Under the pieces are notes generated by a model. The model did not search any database and was not told the DNA's origin. It worked only from the letters and a program-made list of their open reading frames with translations. Shown piece after piece: positions 20,336 to 26,491 of a stretch of DNA of 32,000 nt. The DNA comes from Candidatus Helarchaeota ASGARD archaeon Hel_GB_B. Lineage in GTDB: Archaea > Asgardarchaeota > Lokiarchaeia > Helarchaeales > HEL-GB-B. How positions within the stretch are numbered: position 1 is the first letter of the stretch; each line of letters begins with the position of its first letter. A program made the translations under genes and the position numbers. Location of the stretch: NCBI GenBank assembly GCA_005191425.1, contig SUPR01000034.1, positions 1-32,000 on the forward strand, in the 5' to 3' direction.

Positions 20336-20797
20336 TTATTTCATCATAAGTATGGTTGCAACACCATCTGCAGCTACTTTACCATTATGATTCGGGTCAT
20401 AGACACAGTTATCGATAATTACTTGCGTTTTAATTTCCAAAAATTTTAGTTTACCATCTTTTTTAGTATATTTTTTTATGACTTCAGCGTGTGCAGTTAC
20501 GGTATCTCCAAAATGAACTGGCGCAGTAAATCGAATTTCTTGCCCACCATATATACATCCAGGGCCGGGTAATTTCATTCCCAATACTGCGCTTATTAAA
20601 GCTGATGTAAATGCGCCATGTACAATTCGAGTTTTAAATTGCGTGCTTTTTGCATATTCTTCGTCGATATGGACTGGATTAAAATCGCCACTTATGCCTG
20701 CAAATAATGTATCATCAGTTTGAGTTATAGTTTTTGTGAATTCTGCTTTTTCACCAATTTGAATATCATCAAATGTTCTTTCATTATATTTTCCCAA
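20336..20797 (-). CDS. MaoC-family dehydratase / (R)-specific enoyl-CoA hydratase
   Basis: FAGISGDFNPVHIDE catalytic D/H motif, IVHGAFT and FTAPVHFGDTV. Confidence 0.92.
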   Translation of the reverse strand: MGKYNERTFDDIQIGEKAEFTKTITQTDDTLFAGISGDFNPVHIDEEYAKSTQFKTRIVHGAFTSALISAVLGMKLPGPGCIYGGQEIRFTAPVHFGDTVTAHAEVIKKYTKKDGKLKFLEIKTQVIIDNCVYDPNHNGKVAADGVATILMMK

Positions 20798-21013: not shown

Positions 21014-22354
21014 TTAAAGTTCAACAGGTTTGTCCATTAAATAGGGGTCAGATGCTTTTTGGCCGGTGATTTTATAAACTATTTCCCAGAATTTCGCAGG
21101 TCTAATTCCACGATATGACTCTCTTATCTTCTTTTTGATCAATTTCATTGTATTTAATGCCTCTTGTTTTGTAAGTTTAGATGGTTCGCTTTTAACTTCA
21201 CTAAGAATCTGTTCAATTTGGGTATCAGATGCATTTATTCCCGCTTGATTTAATAAATATCTAATTGTAGTTCTGCCGCTATATTTACCCATATAAAAGT
21301 ACCTATTTCTACCAATTTTACGTGGATTATATGGCTCAATAGTCCACGGACCACCAGAGATCATAGCGTGAATATGAAGTCCAGATTCATGAGAAAATGA
21401 ATTTACTCCAACAATTGCTTTATGAACAGATAGAGGCAGACCAAAATAAGCTTCGGTCAACTCTGCTAACTCATAAAGGTGCTCTGTTTTGACAGTTTTA
21501 ATACCATACAAACAATCAAGGGCCATAACTACTTCTTCTAAAGCAGCATTTCCACTGCGCTCGCCAAATGCATTCACTGTAACGTGAGGATAATTGGCGC
21601 CTTCCTCAAGAGCAGCTAATGTATTTGCTGTAGCTAATCCGAAATCATTATGACAATGAGGAGATATAATAATGTCTTGAGGAATATCGGGGTGATTTAT
21701 TATTTTATTTATCAAATATTTCATTGATTTTGGTCGAAGATACCCCACCGTATCTGCAATATCAATTTTATTAGCACCAGCATTTATAGCAACTTTACAA
21801 AAGTCAATAAGACTATCTAAGGGAGTACGAGTAGCATCTACTGGAACGAAGTCCGCAACTATACCATGATCAACAACATATTGAATAGACTGTTCGATTC
21901 GGTTTAATGCTTCCTCTTTTTCTATTTTCAGGACCCTTTTTAATGATAAATCTGAAATTGGGAAAAAAACTGGGACTTCATCAACTTCGCATTCTACAGC
22001 GACTTGAACATCTTTTAAATGAGCTCTAGCGGGAGCTGCTATTTTTGTATTAAATTTTTCTTTTGCAATTTTGGAAACTATGAATTTATCGTTATCACTT
22101 ACAGCTGGATATCCAACGACAACAACAGCGATGCCCATATCGTCCATTATTTTAATTATATCTAGTTTTTGATTTAAACTTAATTGTACACCAGGAGTTT
22201 GTTCCCCATCTCTGAGAGTTTCATCCCATATTTTGATGTCCTTTTTCATTTTTTCTGGTCTGTTTATTTCTAAGTTGTTATAGTTAAATAATAATTTTTT
22301 ACCTGCTTTAAGTTCGTTGATCTTTTCTACAATTGCCTTTTTATCATCATTCAA
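21014..22354 (-). CDS. DRE-TIM metallolyase (homocitrate/isopropylmalate/citramalate synthase family); substrate not assignable
   Basis: DETLRDGEQTPG, IADTVG, HCHNDFGLA, GERSGNA, HESGLH and GKYSG; no evident LeuA regulatory domain. Confidence 0.88.
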   Translation of the reverse strand: MNDDKKAIVEKINELKAGKKLLFNYNNLEINRPEKMKKDIKIWDETLRDGEQTPGVQLSLNQKLDIIKIMDDMGIAVVVVGYPAVSDNDKFIVSKIAKEKFNTKIAAPARAHLKDVQVAVECEVDEVPVFFPISDLSLKRVLKIEKEEALNRIEQSIQYVVDHGIVADFVPVDATRTPLDSLIDFCKVAINAGANKIDIADTVGYLRPKSMKYLINKIINHPDIPQDIIISPHCHNDFGLATANTLAALEEGANYPHVTVNAFGERSGNAALEEVVMALDCLYGIKTVKTEHLYELAELTEAYFGLPLSVHKAIVGVNSFSHESGLHIHAMISGGPWTIEPYNPRKIGRNRYFYMGKYSGRTTIRYLLNQAGINASDTQIEQILSEVKSEPSKLTKQEALNTMKLIKKKIRESYRGIRPAKFWEIVYKITGQKASDPYLMDKPVEL

Positions 22355-22540: not shown

Positions 22541-23023
22541 TTGGCTTCAGAAAAAATTAGAATTAGGGAATATAAAAAAGGCGATTATCTTTATACCAAG
22601 AGATTGATGCAACAATTGACTGCAAGCGTTGGAAGAGAATTTGAGGAAGATAGATGGAAAAAACATATCAGTATAAGGTTGAGTAGTGGACTGGGTGGTA
22701 TGTTAATAGCTGCAGATGAGGACGACCATTGTTTTGGTATGGCTTTTGTAGAGGTCAGGACCAAGCCAACAGGTCAGTATTATCAGCACCACCCTAGGAC
22801 AGATAAATATGGATATATAACAAATGTGATTGTCGATGAAAAGTGGCGCGGAAAAGGTATTGGAGAAAAATTGATAAGAAAAGCTATTGAAGAATTAAAA
22901 AATGCAGGCATTGAAATCATAAGAATAAATGTCAGAGAAAATGCAACAGAAGCTAAGAACCTTTATAAAAAAATAGGTTTTAAAGAGTCCTATACAGTAA
23001 TGGAATATGAAGTAAAAGATTAA
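22541..23023 (+). CDS. GNAT N-acetyltransferase
   Basis: VIVDEKWRGKGIG and AKNLYKKIGF motifs; AGGTGA RBS before a TTG start. Confidence 0.88.
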   Translation: MASEKIRIREYKKGDYLYTKRLMQQLTASVGREFEEDRWKKHISIRLSSGLGGMLIAADEDDHCFGMAFVEVRTKPTGQYYQHHPRTDKYGYITNVIVDEKWRGKGIGEKLIRKAIEELKNAGIEIIRINVRENATEAKNLYKKIGFKESYTVMEYEVKD

Positions 23024-23091: not shown

Positions 23092-23613
23092 ATGTTTTCA
23101 ATTATTTTTGCACCAGAAGAATTTTATTTAGAATTACAACAAAAACATTTGAAAATACCAATCTTAGATTTGATTAGAAATAAAATTAAGGAATTGAGAT
23201 CGATTGATTTAATTATAAAAACACTCATTGATGAAGAGCATACAATAACCAGTGAGAATTTTCAAATTATTTATTTGATCAACCATAATTTATTAAAAAG
23301 TTTTAAATTAGGTAAATATACATGGACATTGAGTGATGATGATATAAAAAAAGTATTGAATGGAACTTCTATTTTATTTTTAACCGAACGGAAAATTTTT
23401 ATACCAATTAAGAAAGTAAGCAAAATGATGAAGGGAATTATAGAAGAAAGAGGTATCAATATAAAAATTGAAAAAAATGGTTTTTATGATGGATTAAATA
23501 ATGATGATGATGATAAAATAAAAATAGAAGTAATATCCCGTAATGATGAAAGATTTAATATTCTGGCTGATGAGTGCAATGGTAAATTATTAATTTTTTA
23601 TTTAAACGTTTAA
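23092..23613 (+). CDS. Hypothetical protein
   Basis: 173-aa open frame, 2 nt from the next gene; no motif recognised. Confidence 0.6.
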   Translation: MFSIIFAPEEFYLELQQKHLKIPILDLIRNKIKELRSIDLIIKTLIDEEHTITSENFQIIYLINHNLLKSFKLGKYTWTLSDDDIKKVLNGTSILFLTERKIFIPIKKVSKMMKGIIEERGINIKIEKNGFYDGLNNDDDDKIKIEVISRNDERFNILADECNGKLLIFYLNV

Positions 23614-23615
23614 TT

Positions 23616-24260
23616 GTGAAAATCATGATAGTACATAAAAAATTGTATTCTATTTTATGTTATATTGAAATTACCTTAGGAATACTCTTAATTATCTCTA
23701 CGATTATTGAAATTTTTTTTCTAAAAGTCCTCTATGATGATAATTTAGTTGAGAATATATATGTCATATTTTTAGGAATTGGAGGATTTGCAACCCTATT
23801 TGGAGGTTTATTTAGCTTAGGTATTTTACCAATTGCTAGTTGCACGCCTTCATTTATTTGTATGTTATTACTATTAAATAATGAAGATTTTTGGGCAGTA
23901 TTCAGACCAGATATTTTAGTTTTTTTAATATTATCTTTAATAATTGGTGTCCTTTTAATTATTTTTTATCAAGAATTTATCCCTGAAAAACGAAATGAAC
24001 TAAAAGATTTATTATTAAAAGAATTGGGCGGTATTAAAAATAAACAAATAGAAAAATTAAATATGATAGGAATAGAAACTCTTAATGAGTTAATTGAAGA
24101 GAAGGAGAATCTCAAAGAAATTGCAAAGTTAACAAATATTGATAGAAAAATATTAAAAAAATGGATAGATAAAGCAGAAGCTTATGAAAAAGAATATCAA
24201 GATTACCAAAAAGAAAAATTGAAAAAATCATATTGGAAAAGTAGAAAAAATAAGAGATAG
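23616..24260 (+). CDS. Membrane protein (about 4 TM) with C-terminal helix-hairpin-helix-like domain; alternative ATG at 23625
   Basis: Hydrophobic N-terminal half; LKELGGIKNKQIEKLNMIGIETLNELI...IDRKILKKWIDKA resembles an HhH/DUF4332-type module. Confidence 0.7.
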   Translation: MKIMIVHKKLYSILCYIEITLGILLIISTIIEIFFLKVLYDDNLVENIYVIFLGIGGFATLFGGLFSLGILPIASCTPSFICMLLLLNNEDFWAVFRPDILVFLILSLIIGVLLIIFYQEFIPEKRNELKDLLLKELGGIKNKQIEKLNMIGIETLNELIEEKENLKEIAKLTNIDRKILKKWIDKAEAYEKEYQDYQKEKLKKSYWKSRKNKR

Positions 24261-24760
24261 TCCGAAAATAAATATATAAATTTCAGTTTTATCGTTATTG
24301 AAAGTACCTTTTAAGAAAAATCCTAATTTGATTAATTTTTTTGTGAAAACTGAAGAAAATTGTATAAAATTTGGATCGGGCATGCTAACTTAATGGATTA
24401 ATTTGAGTTTATAATTGATAATTGTAGTTTTAATGATTTAATTTTAATAAAGACGACACCGAAAAATTAAAATTTTTAGTTAAAATATTCGATAATATAA
24501 CATTTCATTAAGTTCTGGATAAAAGTTTGGAACATCTAACAAAAATATATAAAGATAAAGTTTAATATCAATATTAATTTCATTATATGATATTAGTTTC
24601 AAAAATCCTTAATATAATATATTAAAACATAAAAAACTAAAATATATTATAATTTAAAATAAAAATTGTAGAAATTAAAAATAGCAATGACAAATTTTTT
24701 ATTTATAAATTTTTTAGCCTAAAAAAATGTTATTTTAAAAATAATTGATGGTGGGTTTTA

Positions 24761-25618
24761 TTGGCAATTAATAAAATAATGAGTTTAAAAGAAGCAGTTT
24801 CTCAATACGTAGAAGATGGTGATCTGGTTGGTATTGGTGGACTGTCATTTTGGAGAAAGCCAATTTCAGCGATAAGAGAAATAATTAGACAAGGAAAAAA
24901 GAATTTAGGAATAGTCACATTTGTTGGGGGACTTGATGTCGATTTATTAGCTGGAGCAAATTGTATAAATAGAGTCCGTGCCAGTTTTGTTGGTATGGAA
25001 TTATTTGGTTTGGCACCAAGATATAGAGAGGCTGTTGAAAGTGGAAAATTGAAGGTCATAGAGGAAACTGAGGCGTCTATTGCATTAGGACTTAAAGCAG
25101 TTTATTTAAGATTACCATTTATGCCATTAAAAGGGATTATTGATACAGATATCTTAAAGGTACGGGATGATATTAAAGAATTTGTTGATCCATTAAAAAA
25201 TGAGAGATTAGTAGCTGTTCCACCAATTAAGCCAGATGTTGCAATAATTCATGTCCCTTATGCTGACGAGAAGGGTAATGGAAATATTGCCGGTGCTGTT
25301 TGGATTGATGACGATCTATCGAAAGTTGCAAAGAAAGTCATTATTACTTGTGAAAAAATTGTTGAAACTGAAGATATTATTAGATTACCTGGTAAAGGAC
25401 AAATCCCTATGCAGAAAGTAGATGCAGTAGTTAGAGTTCCTTTTGGAGCACACCCGACCAGTTGTTATCCGTTTTATACTTTTGACCCAATTCACATTAA
25501 AAATTATATGAAGATCAACTATGATGAATATTTTAATACATTTATTAAACCTGAAAATATTGGAGACTACTTGGAAAAAGTTGGAGGTATAAAATCTATT
25601 TTAAATATAATTACATAG
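24761..25618 (+). CDS. Family I CoA-transferase-fold subunit A (GctA/IpdA-like)
   Basis: GGLSFWRKP, EETEASIALGL, RLPFMP, PDVAIIH, GN and APFGAHPT-like PFGAHPTSC motifs. Confidence 0.88.
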   Translation: MAINKIMSLKEAVSQYVEDGDLVGIGGLSFWRKPISAIREIIRQGKKNLGIVTFVGGLDVDLLAGANCINRVRASFVGMELFGLAPRYREAVESGKLKVIEETEASIALGLKAVYLRLPFMPLKGIIDTDILKVRDDIKEFVDPLKNERLVAVPPIKPDVAIIHVPYADEKGNGNIAGAVWIDDDLSKVAKKVIITCEKIVETEDIIRLPGKGQIPMQKVDAVVRVPFGAHPTSCYPFYTFDPIHIKNYMKINYDEYFNTFIKPENIGDYLEKVGGIKSILNIIT

Positions 25619-25627
25619 GTGATAATT

Positions 25628-26491
25628 ATGGATTATTCAATTGATGAATTAATTACAGTCTTAATGGCACGAGAAGTTACAAATACGGATGTAATGATAG
25701 TTGGAGTTGCGACACCTTGTGTTTGGTCTGCATTTACATTAGCAAAAGTCACCCACGCGCCTAATGCAATTTTTCATTATATAATGGGTAATACATTTGT
25801 GTATGAAGCCCGAAGAGTTTCATTATTATGGCTAGAAAATACAGCTATATCGCGATGCCATCGGATCCATAATAGCGGAGAATGTACCCTTGAATTGCTG
25901 CCCCATGACACTCTTACAACAATCGAATTTTTCAGACCTGCACAAATTGATCAATATGGAAATACGAATAACACATGTATTGGATCGTGGGACAACCCAA
26001 AAGTAAGGTTACCAGGAGCCGCTGGAATTCCGGATTTCTCTGGTTTTTATAGTAGAGGACAGAGTCTTTATGTTACTCGTCATGATAGACGAACTTTTGT
26101 ACCTTCTGAAAAATTGTTTTTTAGGTCAGGTGTTGGGTACGTCAATGGTCAAATGCCAGTTGCAGGAGGAGCAGGCCCTAAATTTATCATAACAGACCTT
26201 GCATATCTTGATTTTGACGAAAAAACTAAAAAAATGCGAATTAAAACGCGACATCCAGGAGTTTCAATCGAAGAAATCCAAGAAAAAACAGGTTTTGAAT
26301 TAATTGTTCCTAACAAAGTTCCTGAGACCAAACCACCAACAGACCATGAGCTAAAAATGTTAAGAGAAAAAGTAGACCCACTTGCTATTAGACGTCTTGA
26401 AGTTCTAACAGGGAAAGAACGAGACGAACATTTACAATATGTTATTGAAAATGAAATAAAAATGGAAAAAAGAGTTATGGAACGCATTTAA
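25628..26491 (+). CDS. Family I CoA-transferase-fold subunit B (GctB/IpdB-like) lacking the canonical catalytic Glu
   Basis: AQIDQYGNTN, RLPGAAG, ITDLA, HPGVS and TGFEL motifs; AGGTGA RBS favours ATG 25628 over GTG 25619. Confidence 0.85.
   Translation: MDYSIDELITVLMAREVTNTDVMIVGVATPCVWSAFTLAKVTHAPNAIFHYIMGNTFVYEARRVSLLWLENTAISRCHRIHNSGECTLELLPHDTLTTIEFFRPAQIDQYGNTNNTCIGSWDNPKVRLPGAAGIPDFSGFYSRGQSLYVTRHDRRTFVPSEKLFFRSGVGYVNGQMPVAGGAGPKFIITDLAYLDFDEKTKKMRIKTRHPGVSIEEIQEKTGFELIVPNKVPETKPPTDHELKMLREKVDPLAIRRLEVLTGKERDEHLQYVIENEIKMEKRVMERI

What the first reader, a model, noticed from the sequence alone, without database searches (positions are those of the whole stretch)
24761..26491. CoA-transferase-fold pair lacking the catalytic beta-Glu: candidate IpdAB-like ring-cleaving hydrolase in an archaeon
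Seen: subunit B reads HAPNAIFHYIMG (Ile codon 25781-25783) where glutaconate CoA-transferase GctB, as recalled, has YAPDCHIIVESG with the catalytic Glu. Subunit A has WRKP and IEETEAS (Glu104). Established, from memory: actinobacterial IpdAB has this fold, is not a transferase, has RRKP and EMDEGM in IpdA, and uses an alpha-subunit Glu (Glu105) as the base for retro-Claisen opening of a steroid-derived ring-CoA. Inference: this pair is a hydrolase or lyase acting on a cyclic or beta-keto acyl-CoA, hinting at ring-compound catabolism. Caveats: the alignment is by eye, and nearby glutamates (YEARR, WLEN) could substitute.
Basis: partly seen in the sequence, partly recalled or inferred. Interest (0 to 1): 0.65.

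Follow-up and report, generated by a model that had tools for sequence, protein, structure and literature searches.

The report
Glu-less CoA-transferase-like enzyme of Lokiarchaeia
Two adjacent genes in this Asgard archaeon encode a well-conserved enzyme with the glutaconate CoA-transferase fold that lacks the glutamate needed for CoA transfer and instead has the alpha-subunit glutamate used by the bacterial hydrolase IpdAB, so it probably cuts or decarboxylates an acyl-CoA, but nothing links it to ring or steroid breakdown.

Summary
Genes A (24761-25618) and B (25619/25628-26491) are a translationally coupled alpha/beta pair of the GctAB/IpdAB/AibAB branch of family I CoA-transferases.

- **Missing beta-Glu:** beta residue 55 is Ile in the window and I/L/V in all 120 orthologues examined. 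No acidic residue lies within 7 residues of it.
- **Alpha-Glu present:** alpha Glu104 is invariant in 50 orthologues. It aligns with IpdA Glu105; GctA has Gln there and AibA has Gly.
- **Pattern across other A/B pairs:** in about 35 other pairs, alpha-Glu104 occurs only where the beta-Glu is missing. On the tree this reduces to few independent events.
- **Distribution:** the clade is one tight orthologue group (63-73 % identity) in Lokiarchaeia, including Helarchaeales. Its nearest relatives reach only about 44 % identity and are also Glu-less.

"Not a CoA-transferase" is well supported. "Ring-cleaving, ring-compound catabolism" is not supported. The neighbours are a MaoC hydratase and, in Lokiarchaeales, an NfsA-like flavin reductase between A and B, DUF169, a corrinoid adenosyltransferase and MeaB with an unusual B12 acyl-CoA mutase.

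My ranking is an IpdAB-type, alpha-Glu-dependent C-C or thioester cleavage (0.4), then an AibAB-type decarboxylase (0.25). The substrate is unknown.

First readers noted the same feature on five other genomes in this scan; none of those notes had been followed up.

The parts
24761..25618 (+). Subunit A (alpha), 285 aa, family I CoA-transferase fold, GctA/IpdA/AibA subgroup. TTG start preceded by GGTGG at 24750-24754.
   Evidence: Pfam CoA_trans E 1.5e-20. PDB sequence matches: GctA 9e-42, IpdA 5e-29, AibA 5e-25. Foldseek on the model: GctA TM 0.78, IpdA 0.77-0.81, AibA 0.68. 50 orthologues with 80 near-invariant positions.
24854..24859 (+). Alpha Arg32-Lys33 of the WRKP motif (DRKP in GctA, RRKP in IpdA). 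Inferred to be a CoA-binding element.
   Evidence: Invariant in 48 of 48 aligned orthologues. Aligned to the RKP of GctA and IpdA. The CoA-binding role is inference.
25061..25072 (+). Alpha E101-E102-T103-E104 (EETEAS). E104 (25070-25072) is the proposed catalytic acid/base and the equivalent of IpdA Glu105.
   Evidence: E101, E102 and E104 are invariant in 50 orthologues. E104 aligns with the residue mutated in 6COJ (E105A). The column is N, Q or L in every beta-Glu-containing pair examined.
25619..26491 (+). Subunit B (beta), 290 aa from the GTG at 25619. The likely true start is the ATG at 25628 (287 aa), with an AGGTGA Shine-Dalgarno sequence overlapping the stop of A, so the genes are translationally coupled.
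   Evidence: Pfam CoA_trans E 1.1e-11. PDB sequence matches: GctB 1.2e-26, AibB 8e-17, IpdB 6e-15. Foldseek on the model: GctB, AibB and IpdB at E 2e-17 to 6e-14. Junction sequence. Orthologues are 287-294 aa.
25781..25783 (+). Beta Ile55, at the position of the catalytic Glu of GctB (ESG motif) and of AibB Cys56.
   Evidence: I98/L20/V2 in 120 orthologues. Aligned to AibB Cys56. Only about 14 of 129 related cluster representatives have Glu in this column.
25775..25837 (+). Clade signature H53-Y54-[ILV]55-M56-G57-N58-T-F-V-x-E63-x-R65 ... E73. E73 lies in the family-wide acidic column and is probably the equivalent of AibB Glu72.
   Evidence: H53, M56, G57, N58, R65 and E73 are invariant; E63 is 116 E and 4 Q. 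Column 73 is E or D in 106 of 129 representatives. Role of AibB Glu72 from PMC7756340. The loop alignment is ambiguous by 1-3 residues.
26015..26026 (+). Beta G133-A134-A135-G136 loop (RLPGAAGIPDF), aligned with the AibB PGVAG loop whose Gly134 amide contacts the thioester or enolate oxygen.
   Evidence: G133, A135 and G136 are invariant or near-invariant. Alignment to AibB and GctB. Role from PMC7756340.
20336..20797 (-). MaoC-type (R)-specific enoyl-CoA hydratase. It is the only recurrent neighbour of the pair that is also present in this window, so it is a possible pathway partner.
   Evidence: Pfam MaoC_dehydratas E 2.5e-25. The same family lies within 5 kb of A/B in 15 of 60 loci, including the other Helarchaeales locus L069. 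53 % identical to the Lokiarchaeales copy.
23092..24260 (+). Two small ORFs (173 and 214 aa) upstream of A on the same strand, separated from A by a 500-bp AT-rich spacer. Syntenic in Helarchaeales. Membership of the system is doubtful.
   Evidence: No Pfam hit. Syntenic counterparts in L069 at 29 % (E 9e-14) and, over 56 residues only, 39 % identity (E 5e-11).

Best explanation
A and B form the alpha/beta protomer of a GctAB-fold enzyme that still binds an acyl-CoA but cannot transfer CoA by the covalent glutamyl-CoA route. The reactive carboxylate has in effect moved across the subunit interface. Beta position 55 is a conserved hydrophobic residue, and alpha position 104, which is Asn or Gln in true transferases, is an invariant Glu, as in IpdAB.

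I propose that alpha-Glu104 acts as general base or acid on the bound acyl-CoA. It would activate water for a hydrolytic C-C cleavage (retro-Claisen type) or a thioester cleavage of a beta-oxo or otherwise activated acyl-CoA. The beta G133-G136 loop would polarise the thioester carbonyl, and beta-Glu73 would serve as a proton relay.

The substrate is probably a small aliphatic (branched or dicarboxylic) acyl-CoA of core Lokiarchaeial metabolism made by hydratase and dehydrogenase steps. The MaoC gene nearby fits this. It is not a steroid-derived ring.

Shown: the fold, the loss of the beta-Glu, the conservation and alignment of the alpha-Glu, and the phyletic spread. Inferred: catalysis by Glu104, the type of bond cleaved, and the substrate class.
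For: - **Family and fold:**
- **Beta-Glu absent:** in all 120 orthologues, with strong purifying selection.
- **Loss of beta-Glu abolishes transfer elsewhere:** solved CtfAB variants are titled E46D 'hydrolase' and E46S 'inactive'.
- **Alpha-Glu104:** invariant and aligned with IpdA Glu105, the residue mutated in 6COJ.
- **Pattern across pairs:** among about 35 other A/B pairs or fusions, alpha-Glu104 occurs in 13 Glu-less groups (plus IpdAB) and in none of 11 beta-Glu groups (plus GctAB), which have N, Q or L.
- **Nearest relatives:** they share the EETEA motif (P0126 and P0128 partners). One of them is followed after 7 nt by a 3-hydroxyacyl-CoA dehydrogenase, which makes 3-oxoacyl-CoA.
- **Binding elements kept:** the alpha RK motif and the beta GxAG loop are conserved.
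- **Context:** MaoC hydratase is retained near the pair in two orders.
Against: - No biochemical data exist for any member of this clade.
- The alpha-Glu/beta-Glu pattern rests on few independent events. On the A-subunit tree the beta-Glu state changes only twice and the alpha-Glu state four times, so it is not statistical proof.
- Sequence similarity is higher to GctAB than to IpdAB.
- No neighbour is a thiolase or dehydrogenase set typical of an IpdAB-type pathway.
- A Glu at position 104 would serve equally well as the proton donor of a decarboxylase.
- The flavin reductase inserted between A and B in many Lokiarchaeales is not explained by a simple hydrolase.
- The monomer models are poor around the active-site loops (pLDDT below 50 for beta 56-96 and alpha 110-128). 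No residue-level superposition was possible.
Confidence: 0.4

Rival explanations
1. AibAB-type, biotin-independent acyl-CoA decarboxylase. The enzyme binds a carboxylated acyl-CoA, such as glutaconyl-, 3-methylglutaconyl- or (methyl)malonyl-type. The hydrophobic beta-55 pocket and the thioester loop promote CO2 loss, and the enolate is protonated by alpha-Glu104 or beta-Glu73. A flavin reductase then reduces the enoyl-CoA product, as AibC does in Myxococcus.
For: - AibAB is a solved member of the same subgroup.
- Its Cys56 can be Ala, Ser, Asn or Val without loss of decarboxylase activity, and Glu72B and the Gly134B amide are the proposed helpers (PMC7756340). The equivalents, E73 and G136, are invariant here.
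- In Lokiarchaeales an NfsA-like flavin reductase sits between A and B (32 of 60 loci; 22 in a tight co-directional chain), or an OYE reductase sits just upstream (4-6 loci). MaoC hydratase and the thiolase with DUF35 and the adjacent family-20 gene (taken to be HMG-CoA synthase, not checked) lie nearby. This parallels the aibA-aibB-aibC-mvaS and liuC logic.
- No carboxyltransferase (PF01039) was found in this genome (93.7 % complete) or in 137 of 151 genomes of the class. The genome nevertheless encodes an MCM-type mutase and ten HGD-D-family proteins, so a biotin-free decarboxylase would fill a gap.
- The adjacent Lokiarchaeales mutase lacks the carboxylate-binding Arg. This fits a neutral acyl-CoA arising downstream of a decarboxylation.
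Against: - AibA has Gly, not Glu, at alpha-104, so the invariant Glu is not a decarboxylase requirement.
- AibAB is the most distant of the three solved relatives (82 and 65 bits).
- This genome has no orthologue of the in-operon reductase, and here the pair stands alone.
- Carboxyltransferase presence and A/B presence are not cleanly complementary (G207 and G225 have both).
- Decarboxylating glutaryl-CoA dehydrogenases or crotonase-type decarboxylases could fill the gap instead (8 ECH genes).
Confidence: 0.25
2. Intramolecular CoA transferase ('CoA mutase') acting on an unsymmetrical dicarboxylyl-CoA. The substrate's own free carboxylate attacks the thioester to give an internal anhydride, and CoA re-attacks the other carbonyl, so no enzyme nucleophile is needed.
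For: - ThnP, a Glu-less family I (Cat1-group) enzyme, was shown to catalyse exactly such an intramolecular transfer, and an internal anhydride was proposed (PMC11659651).
- The closest solved relative, GctAB, handles C5 dicarboxylates.
- The pair lies next to an acyl-CoA mutase cluster in many Lokiarchaeales.
Against: - ThnP belongs to a different subgroup (single-chain Cat1), so this is an analogy only.
- The neighbouring mutase appears to lack the Arg that binds a substrate carboxylate.
- An invariant alpha-Glu is not needed for this mechanism.
Confidence: 0.1
3. A genuine intermolecular CoA-transferase whose nucleophile has been relocated to alpha-Glu104 (or beta-Glu63), forming the enzyme-CoA thioester there.
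For: - Alpha-104 occupies the column that is Asn or Gln next to the catalytic Glu in true transferases, so a carboxylate there would lie close to the thioester.
- All public annotations call the proteins CoA-transferase subunits.
Against: - Of the two characterised Glu-less members of this subgroup, IpdAB is described as a ring-cleaving hydrolase rather than a transferase (PMC6678751, entry titles), and AibAB is a decarboxylase (PMC7756340).
- E63 is Gln in 4 of 120 orthologues and is not conserved in sister clades.
- The genome already has two canonical pairs with the E-x-G motif on contigs C45 and C93.
Confidence: 0.1
4. A catalytically dead acyl-CoA-binding protein, with a regulatory or scaffolding role, for example for the B12 mutase module.
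For: - Loss of the canonical nucleophile.
- Frequent placement between the corrinoid adenosyltransferase and the MeaB/mutase genes.
Against: - A third of all positions are near-invariant, including polar residues clustered at active-site columns (alpha E101/E102/E104, H231; beta H53, N58, E73).
- In this genome the pair is unlinked from the mutase genes.
Confidence: 0.05

Closest known systems
IpdAB (Rhodococcus jostii / Mycobacterium tuberculosis; PDB 6CO6, 6CO9, 6COJ, 6CON), the COCHEA-CoA ring-cleaving hydrolase of steroid catabolism
   Same: Alpha/beta pair of the GctAB subgroup. No catalytic Glu in beta. A Glu in alpha at the same alignment column (Glu105 against Glu104), within a conserved E-x-x-E pattern. 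RKP motif in alpha.
   Different: Only 24-25 % identity (Foldseek). Lower profile scores than to GctAB (122 and 70 bits against 175 and 115). The N-terminal half of IpdB does not align. No steroid or KstR2-type gene context. Archaeal, anaerobic hosts. Substrate unknown.
AibA/AibB (Myxococcus xanthus; PDB 5MZW-5N03), 3-methylglutaconyl-CoA decarboxylase
   Same: Same subgroup and fold. Beta catalytic Glu replaced (Cys56; the Val variant is active, compare Ile/Leu/Val here). Family-wide beta Glu (Glu72/E73) and thioester loop kept. In Lokiarchaeales a reductase gene lies in the operon, like aibC.
   Different: AibA has Gly where this protein has the invariant Glu104. It is the most distant of the solved relatives (82 and 65 bits). 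The partner reductase belongs to a different family (NfsA-like or OYE), and no orthologue of it was found in the genome of this window.
Glutaconate CoA-transferase GctAB (Acidaminococcus fermentans; PDB 1POI)
   Same: Best sequence and structure match for both subunits (34 % and 25 % identity; TM 0.78 and 0.65). Same subunit sizes and gene order.
   Different: GctB has the catalytic Glu (ESG) where this protein has Ile. GctA has Gln where this protein has Glu104. On the A-subunit tree the Gct-like pairs of Firmicutes lie in the separate beta-Glu clade.
ThnP (culture N47), Glu-less family I intramolecular CoA-transferase
   Same: Family I fold without the canonical Glu. Acts on an acyl-CoA without an enzyme-bound intermediate (proposed).
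   Different: Cat1-type single chain, a different subgroup. No sequence relationship was tested here.

Membership tests
Family I CoA-transferases, GctAB/IpdAB/AibAB subgroup (fold level) | Two homologous open alpha/beta domains on separate A and B chains, matching Pfam CoA_trans | tested here: met
   Pfam 74 and 45 bits, above the cut-off of 23. Foldseek top hits are 1POI, 5MZW, 6CO6 and 6CON for both models.
Glutaconate CoA-transferase (GctAB, EC 2.8.3.12) and canonical family I transferases | Catalytic Glu in the beta subunit (E-S/G-G motif) that forms the glutamyl-CoA thioester | tested here: not met
   Ile55 in the window; I, L or V in 120 of 120 orthologues; no acidic residue at positions 46-62.
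IpdAB-type hydrolases | Beta subunit lacks the catalytic Glu | tested here: met
IpdAB-type hydrolases | Catalytic Glu105 in the alpha subunit | tested here: met
   E104 aligns with the E105 column, and 6COJ (E105A) shows Ala there. Invariant in 50 orthologues.
IpdAB-type hydrolases | Membership of the IpdAB sequence clade | tested here: not met
   Profiles score GctA and GctB higher than IpdA and IpdB (175 against 122; 115 against 70 bits), and the IpdB N-terminal half does not align. IpdAB sequences could not be placed in the tree.
IpdAB-type hydrolases | Steroid ring C/D catabolic gene context (enoyl-CoA hydratase EchA20, thiolase, acyl-CoA dehydrogenases, IpdC and others) | tested here: not met
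   None was found in the window or among recurrent neighbours in 60 loci.
IpdAB-type hydrolases | Retro-Claisen hydrolysis of a cyclic beta-oxo enoyl-CoA; no CoA transfer | not testable with these tools
   Requires an enzyme assay.
AibAB-type decarboxylases | Beta catalytic Glu replaced by a non-nucleophile, with beta Glu72 and the Gly134 loop retained | tested here: met
   Ile55, and E73 and G136 invariant. The Glu72/E73 equivalence is ambiguous by 1-3 residues in the pairwise alignment but is supported by the family-wide acidic column.
AibAB-type decarboxylases | Operon with an enoyl-CoA reductase and HMG-CoA synthase; a hydratase supplies 3-methylglutaconyl-CoA | tested here: inconclusive
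   Lokiarchaeales: an NfsA-like or OYE reductase in or next to the operon, with MaoC and the thiolase/DUF35/family-20 (HMG-CoA synthase?) genes within 10 kb in some loci. In the window only MaoC is nearby, and no reductase orthologue is in the genome.
AibAB-type decarboxylases | Decarboxylation of 3-methylglutaconyl-CoA | not testable with these tools
   Requires an enzyme assay.

The most novel reading that the evidence does not exclude
The A/B pair, the NfsA-like flavin reductase inserted between its genes, DUF169, the CobA adenosyltransferase, MeaB and a B12 acyl-CoA mutase form an undescribed acyl-CoA pathway conserved across Lokiarchaeia. The mutase has substrate-pocket residues (Phe / Tyr / Asn at the MCM Tyr89 / Arg207 / His244 columns) that match no characterised mutase. 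In this pathway the Glu-less enzyme would replace biotin-dependent carboxyltransferases, which were not found in about 90 % of the class. It would decarboxylate or cleave a carboxylated acyl-CoA to a neutral, probably branched, acyl-CoA that the mutase then rearranges.
Probability: 0.15. Interest if true: 0.8.

Novelty: new variant of a known kind. Interest (0 to 1): 0.55.

Why it matters
Public annotation names these proteins 'CoA-transferase subunit beta', 'glutaconate CoA-transferase' or '3-oxoadipate CoA-transferase'. Metabolic reconstructions of Asgard archaea that rely on such labels would assign a reaction the enzyme almost certainly cannot perform.

The clade is one of the best-conserved metabolic enzymes of Lokiarchaeia: 63-73 % identity across the class, and orthologues in about 80 % of genomes of its largest family. 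Its real reaction is therefore a missing step in the carbon metabolism of the archaeal group closest to eukaryotes.

More generally, only about one in ten of the nearest protein clusters in this subfamily keeps the catalytic Glu. About half of the Glu-less pairs examined carry the alpha-Glu instead. IpdAB and AibAB are thus the only characterised tips of a very large, mostly unexplored set of non-transferases.

Tried and rejected
- **Residue-level superposition on GctAB or IpdAB:** The monomer models are also poor exactly at the active-site loops (pLDDT below 50 for beta 56-96 and alpha 110-128). Only fold ranking was obtained.
- **Placing IpdAB, AibAB and GctAB in the tree:** Relationships to them rest on HMMER profile scores.
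- **Fused A-B forms:** the 'longer' search found none. This is weak evidence. Fusions were taken from the representative search instead.
- **Contexts of the nearest non-Asgard relatives:** P0123-P0126 lie on contigs of 1.5-4 kb, which are mostly uninformative.
- **Context of the sister clade (f21):** no metabolic neighbours.
- **Expression:** no RNA holder was listed for this stretch.
- **Statistical test of alpha-Glu against beta-Glu on the tree:** only 1-2 independent contrasts, so no test is possible.
- **Genome-level co-occurrence of A/B with the unusual mutase:** concordant at family level. Both were found in f3 and the Helarchaeales families; in f4 no A/B orthologue was found and the mutase in 1 of 13 genomes. 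Within f3 the link is only weak: about 84 % of A/B-positive against about 63 % of A/B-negative genomes have the mutase, and MAG incompleteness confounds this.
- **Complementarity with carboxyltransferase:** suggestive for genus g7 (3 of 3 have PF01039; A/B orthologue found in none) but not clean elsewhere.
- **Crowe et al. 2018 (IpdAB) paper:** not held in the library. IpdAB facts come from PDB titles, the review PMC6678751 and memory.
Full report
**What is there.**
The window is archaeal. It encodes TFIIE-alpha and a GPN-loop GTPase. The closest database proteins are labelled Candidatus Helarchaeota, and an earlier follow-up report on this genome calls it Helarchaeales. GC content is about 28 %.

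- ORF A (24761-25618, 285 aa) and ORF B (25619-26491, 290 aa) lie head to tail on the + strand.
- The TAG stop of A (25616-25618) overlaps an AGGTGA Shine-Dalgarno sequence that sits 5 nt before the ATG at 25628. Database orthologues are 287 aa. B therefore most likely starts at 25628 and is translationally coupled to A.
- A is preceded by GGTGG (24750-24754) and a 500-bp AT-rich spacer.
- B is followed by a convergent TatD gene. In this genome the pair is therefore a two-gene unit.

**Checking the observation.**
All quoted motifs are present.

- Both proteins match Pfam CoA_trans. They fall far below the NCBIfam cut-offs for 3-oxoacid or acetate CoA-transferases.
- Against solved structures, the best sequence matches are GctA/GctB (1POI; E 9e-42 and 1e-26), then IpdA/IpdB (6CO6, 6CON) and AibA/AibB (5MZW-5N03).
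- Profiles built from 39 A and 46 B orthologues give the same order: A scores 175, 122 and 82 bits; B scores 115, 70 and 65 bits.
- AlphaFold models (pTM 0.80 each) retrieve the same three enzymes first by Foldseek.

Beta position:
- The segment T-H-A-P-N-A-I-F-H-Y-I-M-G aligns without gaps to AibB T-H-A-P-D-L-T-Y-L-A-C-V-G. This places Ile55 on Cys56, the residue that replaces the Gct catalytic Glu (PMC7756340).
- The alignment to GctB (Y-A-P-D-C-H-I-I-V-E-S-G) is locally ambiguous. Since no Asp or Glu lies between residues 46 and 62, the conclusion does not depend on the register.

Alpha position:
- I-E-E-T-E-A-S aligns with IpdA R-E-M-D-E-G-M.
- The chain of 6COJ differs from 6CO6 by Ala at exactly the column of E104, and 6COJ is the E105A variant.
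- GctA has Gln and AibA has Gly at that column.

**Is it conserved or an accident?**
- The word-based search returned 120 proteins of 65-100 % identity, labelled Helarchaeota, Lokiarchaeota, Promethearchaeota, Hermod-, Thor-, Hod- and Odinarchaeota MAGs.
- In these, position 55 is I98/L20/V2 and never acidic. 105 of 290 positions are at least 98 % conserved, including H53, M56, G57, N58, R65, E73 and the G133-A135-G136 loop.
- In 50 A orthologues E101, E102, E104, the R32-K33 motif and H231-P-T-S are invariant.
- The exhaustive representative search shows one 50 %-identity cluster for the whole clade (P0032, 71 %), then a drop to 44 % identity or less.
- Across 301 genomes of the phylum, orthologues at 63 % identity or more (two truncated contig-end hits included) were found in most genomes of one large family (f3; about 50 of 69) and in the one other genome of the window's own order. 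A sister form of 54-56 % identity, with His at beta-55, occurs in family f21. All other Asgard families have only paralogues of 45 % identity or less.
- The genome of the window also has two canonical-looking pairs on contigs C45 and C93, with I-L-E-T-G and I-M-E-G-G.

**How unusual is Glu-lessness in this subfamily?**
- Of 129 full-length representatives nearest to B, only about 14 have Glu in column 55. The rest show G, T, S, A, P, L, I and others.
- I collected both subunits for about 35 further pairs or fusions, from loci, fused proteins, Asgard paralogues and the genome's own paralogues.
  - Every pair with a beta-Glu (11 groups, plus GctAB) has N, Q or L at alpha-104.
  - Among Glu-less pairs, 13 groups (plus IpdAB) have Glu at alpha-104, and 11 (plus AibAB) have A, G, T, V, N or C.
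  - No pair has both glutamates.
- The nearest relatives of the Asgard clade (partners of P0126 and P0128) even share the E-E-T-E-A motif.
- On a maximum-likelihood tree of A subunits the beta-Glu pairs form essentially one clade (two state changes), and alpha-Glu changes four times. The pattern is real but rests on few independent events, so I treat it as supportive, not as proof.
- On that tree the Asgard clade is sister to the f21 form (SH-aLRT 90). It sits among Glu-less, mostly alpha-Glu lineages and far from the Gct-like pairs of Firmicutes (L074-L076, L079).

**Genomic context.**
In the window the neighbours are, upstream:
- a MaoC hydratase (20336-20797, - strand);
- an HMGL-like synthase (21014-22354, - strand);
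- a GNAT (22541-23023);
- two small unknown ORFs (23092-24260).

Downstream are TatD, an AAA_28 protein and a helicase. The other Helarchaeales locus, L069, keeps MaoC, the HMGL-like gene, the two small ORFs and A/B in the same order.

I called ORFs in 60 Asgard loci and clustered them. Families were named by Pfam and NCBIfam. Recurrent neighbours:

| Neighbour | Loci of 60 | Note |
|---|---|---|
| NfsA-like FMN reductase | 32 | Between A and B; 22 in a chain with gaps under 150 nt |
| DUF169 | 23 | Just upstream; 13 in the chain |
| CobA-type corrinoid adenosyltransferase | 29 | Divergent upstream |
| HTH regulator | 32 | Downstream |
| ICMT-like membrane protein | 26 | Next to the regulator |
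| MeaB | 24 | Convergent downstream |
| B12-binding subunit | 17 | Convergent downstream |
| Acyl-CoA mutase large subunit | 16 | Convergent downstream |
| MaoC | 17 | |
| Thiolase | 15 | With DUF35 (9) and family 20, taken to be HMG-CoA synthase (9; not checked against Pfam) |
| AMP-forming acyl-CoA synthetase | 12 | |
| OYE reductase | 6-7 | |

- In 10-11 loci A and B are separated by an inserted ACT/homoserine dehydrogenase/threonine synthase/HAD block, so co-transcription is not obligatory.
- In the genome of the window, MeaB, CobA and an MCM-type mutase lie together on another contig (C96). No orthologue of the NfsA-like reductase was found.
- The context therefore points to acyl-CoA and B12-dependent metabolism. 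No ring- or steroid-degradation genes were seen.

**Two further genome facts bear on function.**
- No carboxyltransferase domain (PF01039) was found in this genome (93.7 % complete) or in 137 of 151 genomes sampled from the class. This domain is the common component of propionyl-CoA and methylcrotonyl-CoA carboxylases and of methylmalonyl- and glutaconyl-CoA decarboxylases.
- The genome nevertheless has an MCM-type mutase, ten HGD-D-family (2-hydroxyacyl-CoA dehydratase or benzoyl-CoA reductase-like) matches and eight crotonases.
- The three genomes of genus g7 that have a carboxyltransferase lack an A/B orthologue. Elsewhere the two are not mutually exclusive.

**Mechanistic reading.**

*What is settled.* The canonical ping-pong transferase mechanism needs the beta-Glu. 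Solved CtfAB variants are described as hydrolase (E46D) and inactive (E46S) (titles). This clade has never had that Glu, yet it is under strong purifying selection, with polar invariant residues at active-site columns. It is therefore an enzyme, but not a canonical CoA-transferase (my confidence about 0.8).

*What is inferred.* Alpha-104 is the column that toggles between Asn or Gln in transferases and Glu in Glu-less pairs. From memory, the corresponding Gln of SCOT hydrogen-bonds the catalytic Glu thioester. In IpdAB this residue is the catalytic base for the retro-Claisen hydrolysis of COCHEA-CoA (PMC6678751, PDB titles, and memory of Crowe et al. 2018, which I could not read).

- **Preferred (0.4):** an IpdAB-type layout in which Glu104 activates water for C-C or thioester cleavage of an activated acyl-CoA.
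- **Main rival (0.25):** an AibAB-type decarboxylase. AibB Cys56 can be Val. Glu72B and the Gly134B amide do the supporting work (PMC7756340), and their equivalents are invariant here. The reductase-in-operon, hydratase and HMG-CoA synthase context in Lokiarchaeales resembles the aib/liuC logic. The class-wide lack of detectable carboxyltransferases leaves a niche for a biotin-free decarboxylase. Against it, AibA has Gly at alpha-104.
- **Minor rivals:** an intramolecular CoA transfer through an internal anhydride, with ThnP as precedent (PMC11659651), and a transferase with a relocated nucleophile (0.1 each).

The catalytic-rewiring observation is right and is now backed by alignments to solved structures and by conservation. 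The step to 'ring-cleaving' and 'ring-compound catabolism' has no support in context or phylogeny. The substrate is more likely a small aliphatic acyl-CoA of core metabolism.

First readers made the same observation on five other genomes of this scan; none had been followed up. The His-55 variant mentioned in one of those notes corresponds to the f21 sister clade seen here.

**Novelty.**
Glu-less GctAB-fold enzymes are known (IpdAB, AibAB). This is a distinct, uncharacterised, archaeal clade that combines GctAB-like overall sequence with the IpdAB-type alpha-Glu, so I class it as a new variant of a known kind. Its value lies in correcting a widespread annotation and in pointing to an unassigned, strongly conserved step of Lokiarchaeial acyl-CoA metabolism.

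Noticed in passing
L035:11227-12903 (-), L058:9756-11429 (-), L029:12555-14258 (-) and orthologues: The B12 acyl-CoA mutase large subunit next to A/B in Lokiarchaeales differs from MCM and ICM at the substrate-determining columns. It reads M-R-L-F-S-G-H-G (Phe at the MCM Tyr89 column), T-V-G-Y-I-P-Y-K (Tyr or Gly instead of Arg207/Gln198) and T-G-Y-N-Y-R-E (Asn instead of His244); the residue roles are from memory. NCBIfam assigns it only to the generic mutase N-terminal domain. Orthologues of 66-100 % identity occur in 100 of 127 f3 genomes and 5 of 7 genomes of the window's own order. It may be an uncharacterised mutase specificity.
   Followed up: partly
G000 contigs C96 (9-1673), C160 (23104-24702), C182 (42857-44491): The genome of the window has three mutase paralogues with different pocket signatures: R-Q-Y-A-G-F with A-R-G-A-Y-I (MCM type), R-Q-F-A-G-F with A-Q-K-S-W-I (ICM type), and Q-R-L-I-C-G-T with G-R-N-I-R-E (neither type).
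   Followed up: partly
whole genome G000 and 151 genomes of its class: No carboxyltransferase domain (PF01039) was found in G000 (93.7 % complete) or in 137 of 151 sampled genomes of the class, although the same search hits 12 of 14 control genomes. Biotin-dependent acyl-CoA carboxylases and decarboxylases therefore appear to be generally missing in Lokiarchaeia.
   Followed up: partly
window 23092-23613 and 23616-24260 (+): Two small ORFs without a Pfam match lie upstream of A. Syntenic counterparts exist in another Helarchaeales genome: 29 % identity over 146 aa for the first, and 39 % over a 56-aa C-terminal stretch for the second. Function unknown.
   Followed up: partly
L016, L019, L020, L021, L022, L028, L033, L053, L068, L070: In about ten Lokiarchaeales genomes the A and B genes are split apart by an inserted block of ACT-domain protein, homoserine dehydrogenase, threonine synthase and a HAD hydrolase on the opposite strand. 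The two subunits are then about 4 kb apart.
   Followed up: no
L083:751-2476, L084:3049-4775 (family f21 genomes G028, G038): The sister clade (54-56 % identity to B) carries His at the beta-55 position (P-M-F-H-M-G-N) while keeping the alpha I-E-E-T-E motif. Its neighbourhood holds no metabolic genes.
   Followed up: partly
L044, L045, L048, L051, L052, L059: In six loci B is followed by DUF2284, a corrinoid protein with a B12-binding domain, a RACo-type reductive activator and an AMP-forming ligase. This is a corrinoid methyltransferase-like module next to the pair.
   Followed up: no
window 24261-24760: An unusually long (500 bp), very AT-rich non-coding spacer lies upstream of A. A TTTATAAA box at 24700-24707 sits about 55 nt before the TTG start and is a possible archaeal promoter. 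No Rfam family or tRNA was found in the window.
   Followed up: no
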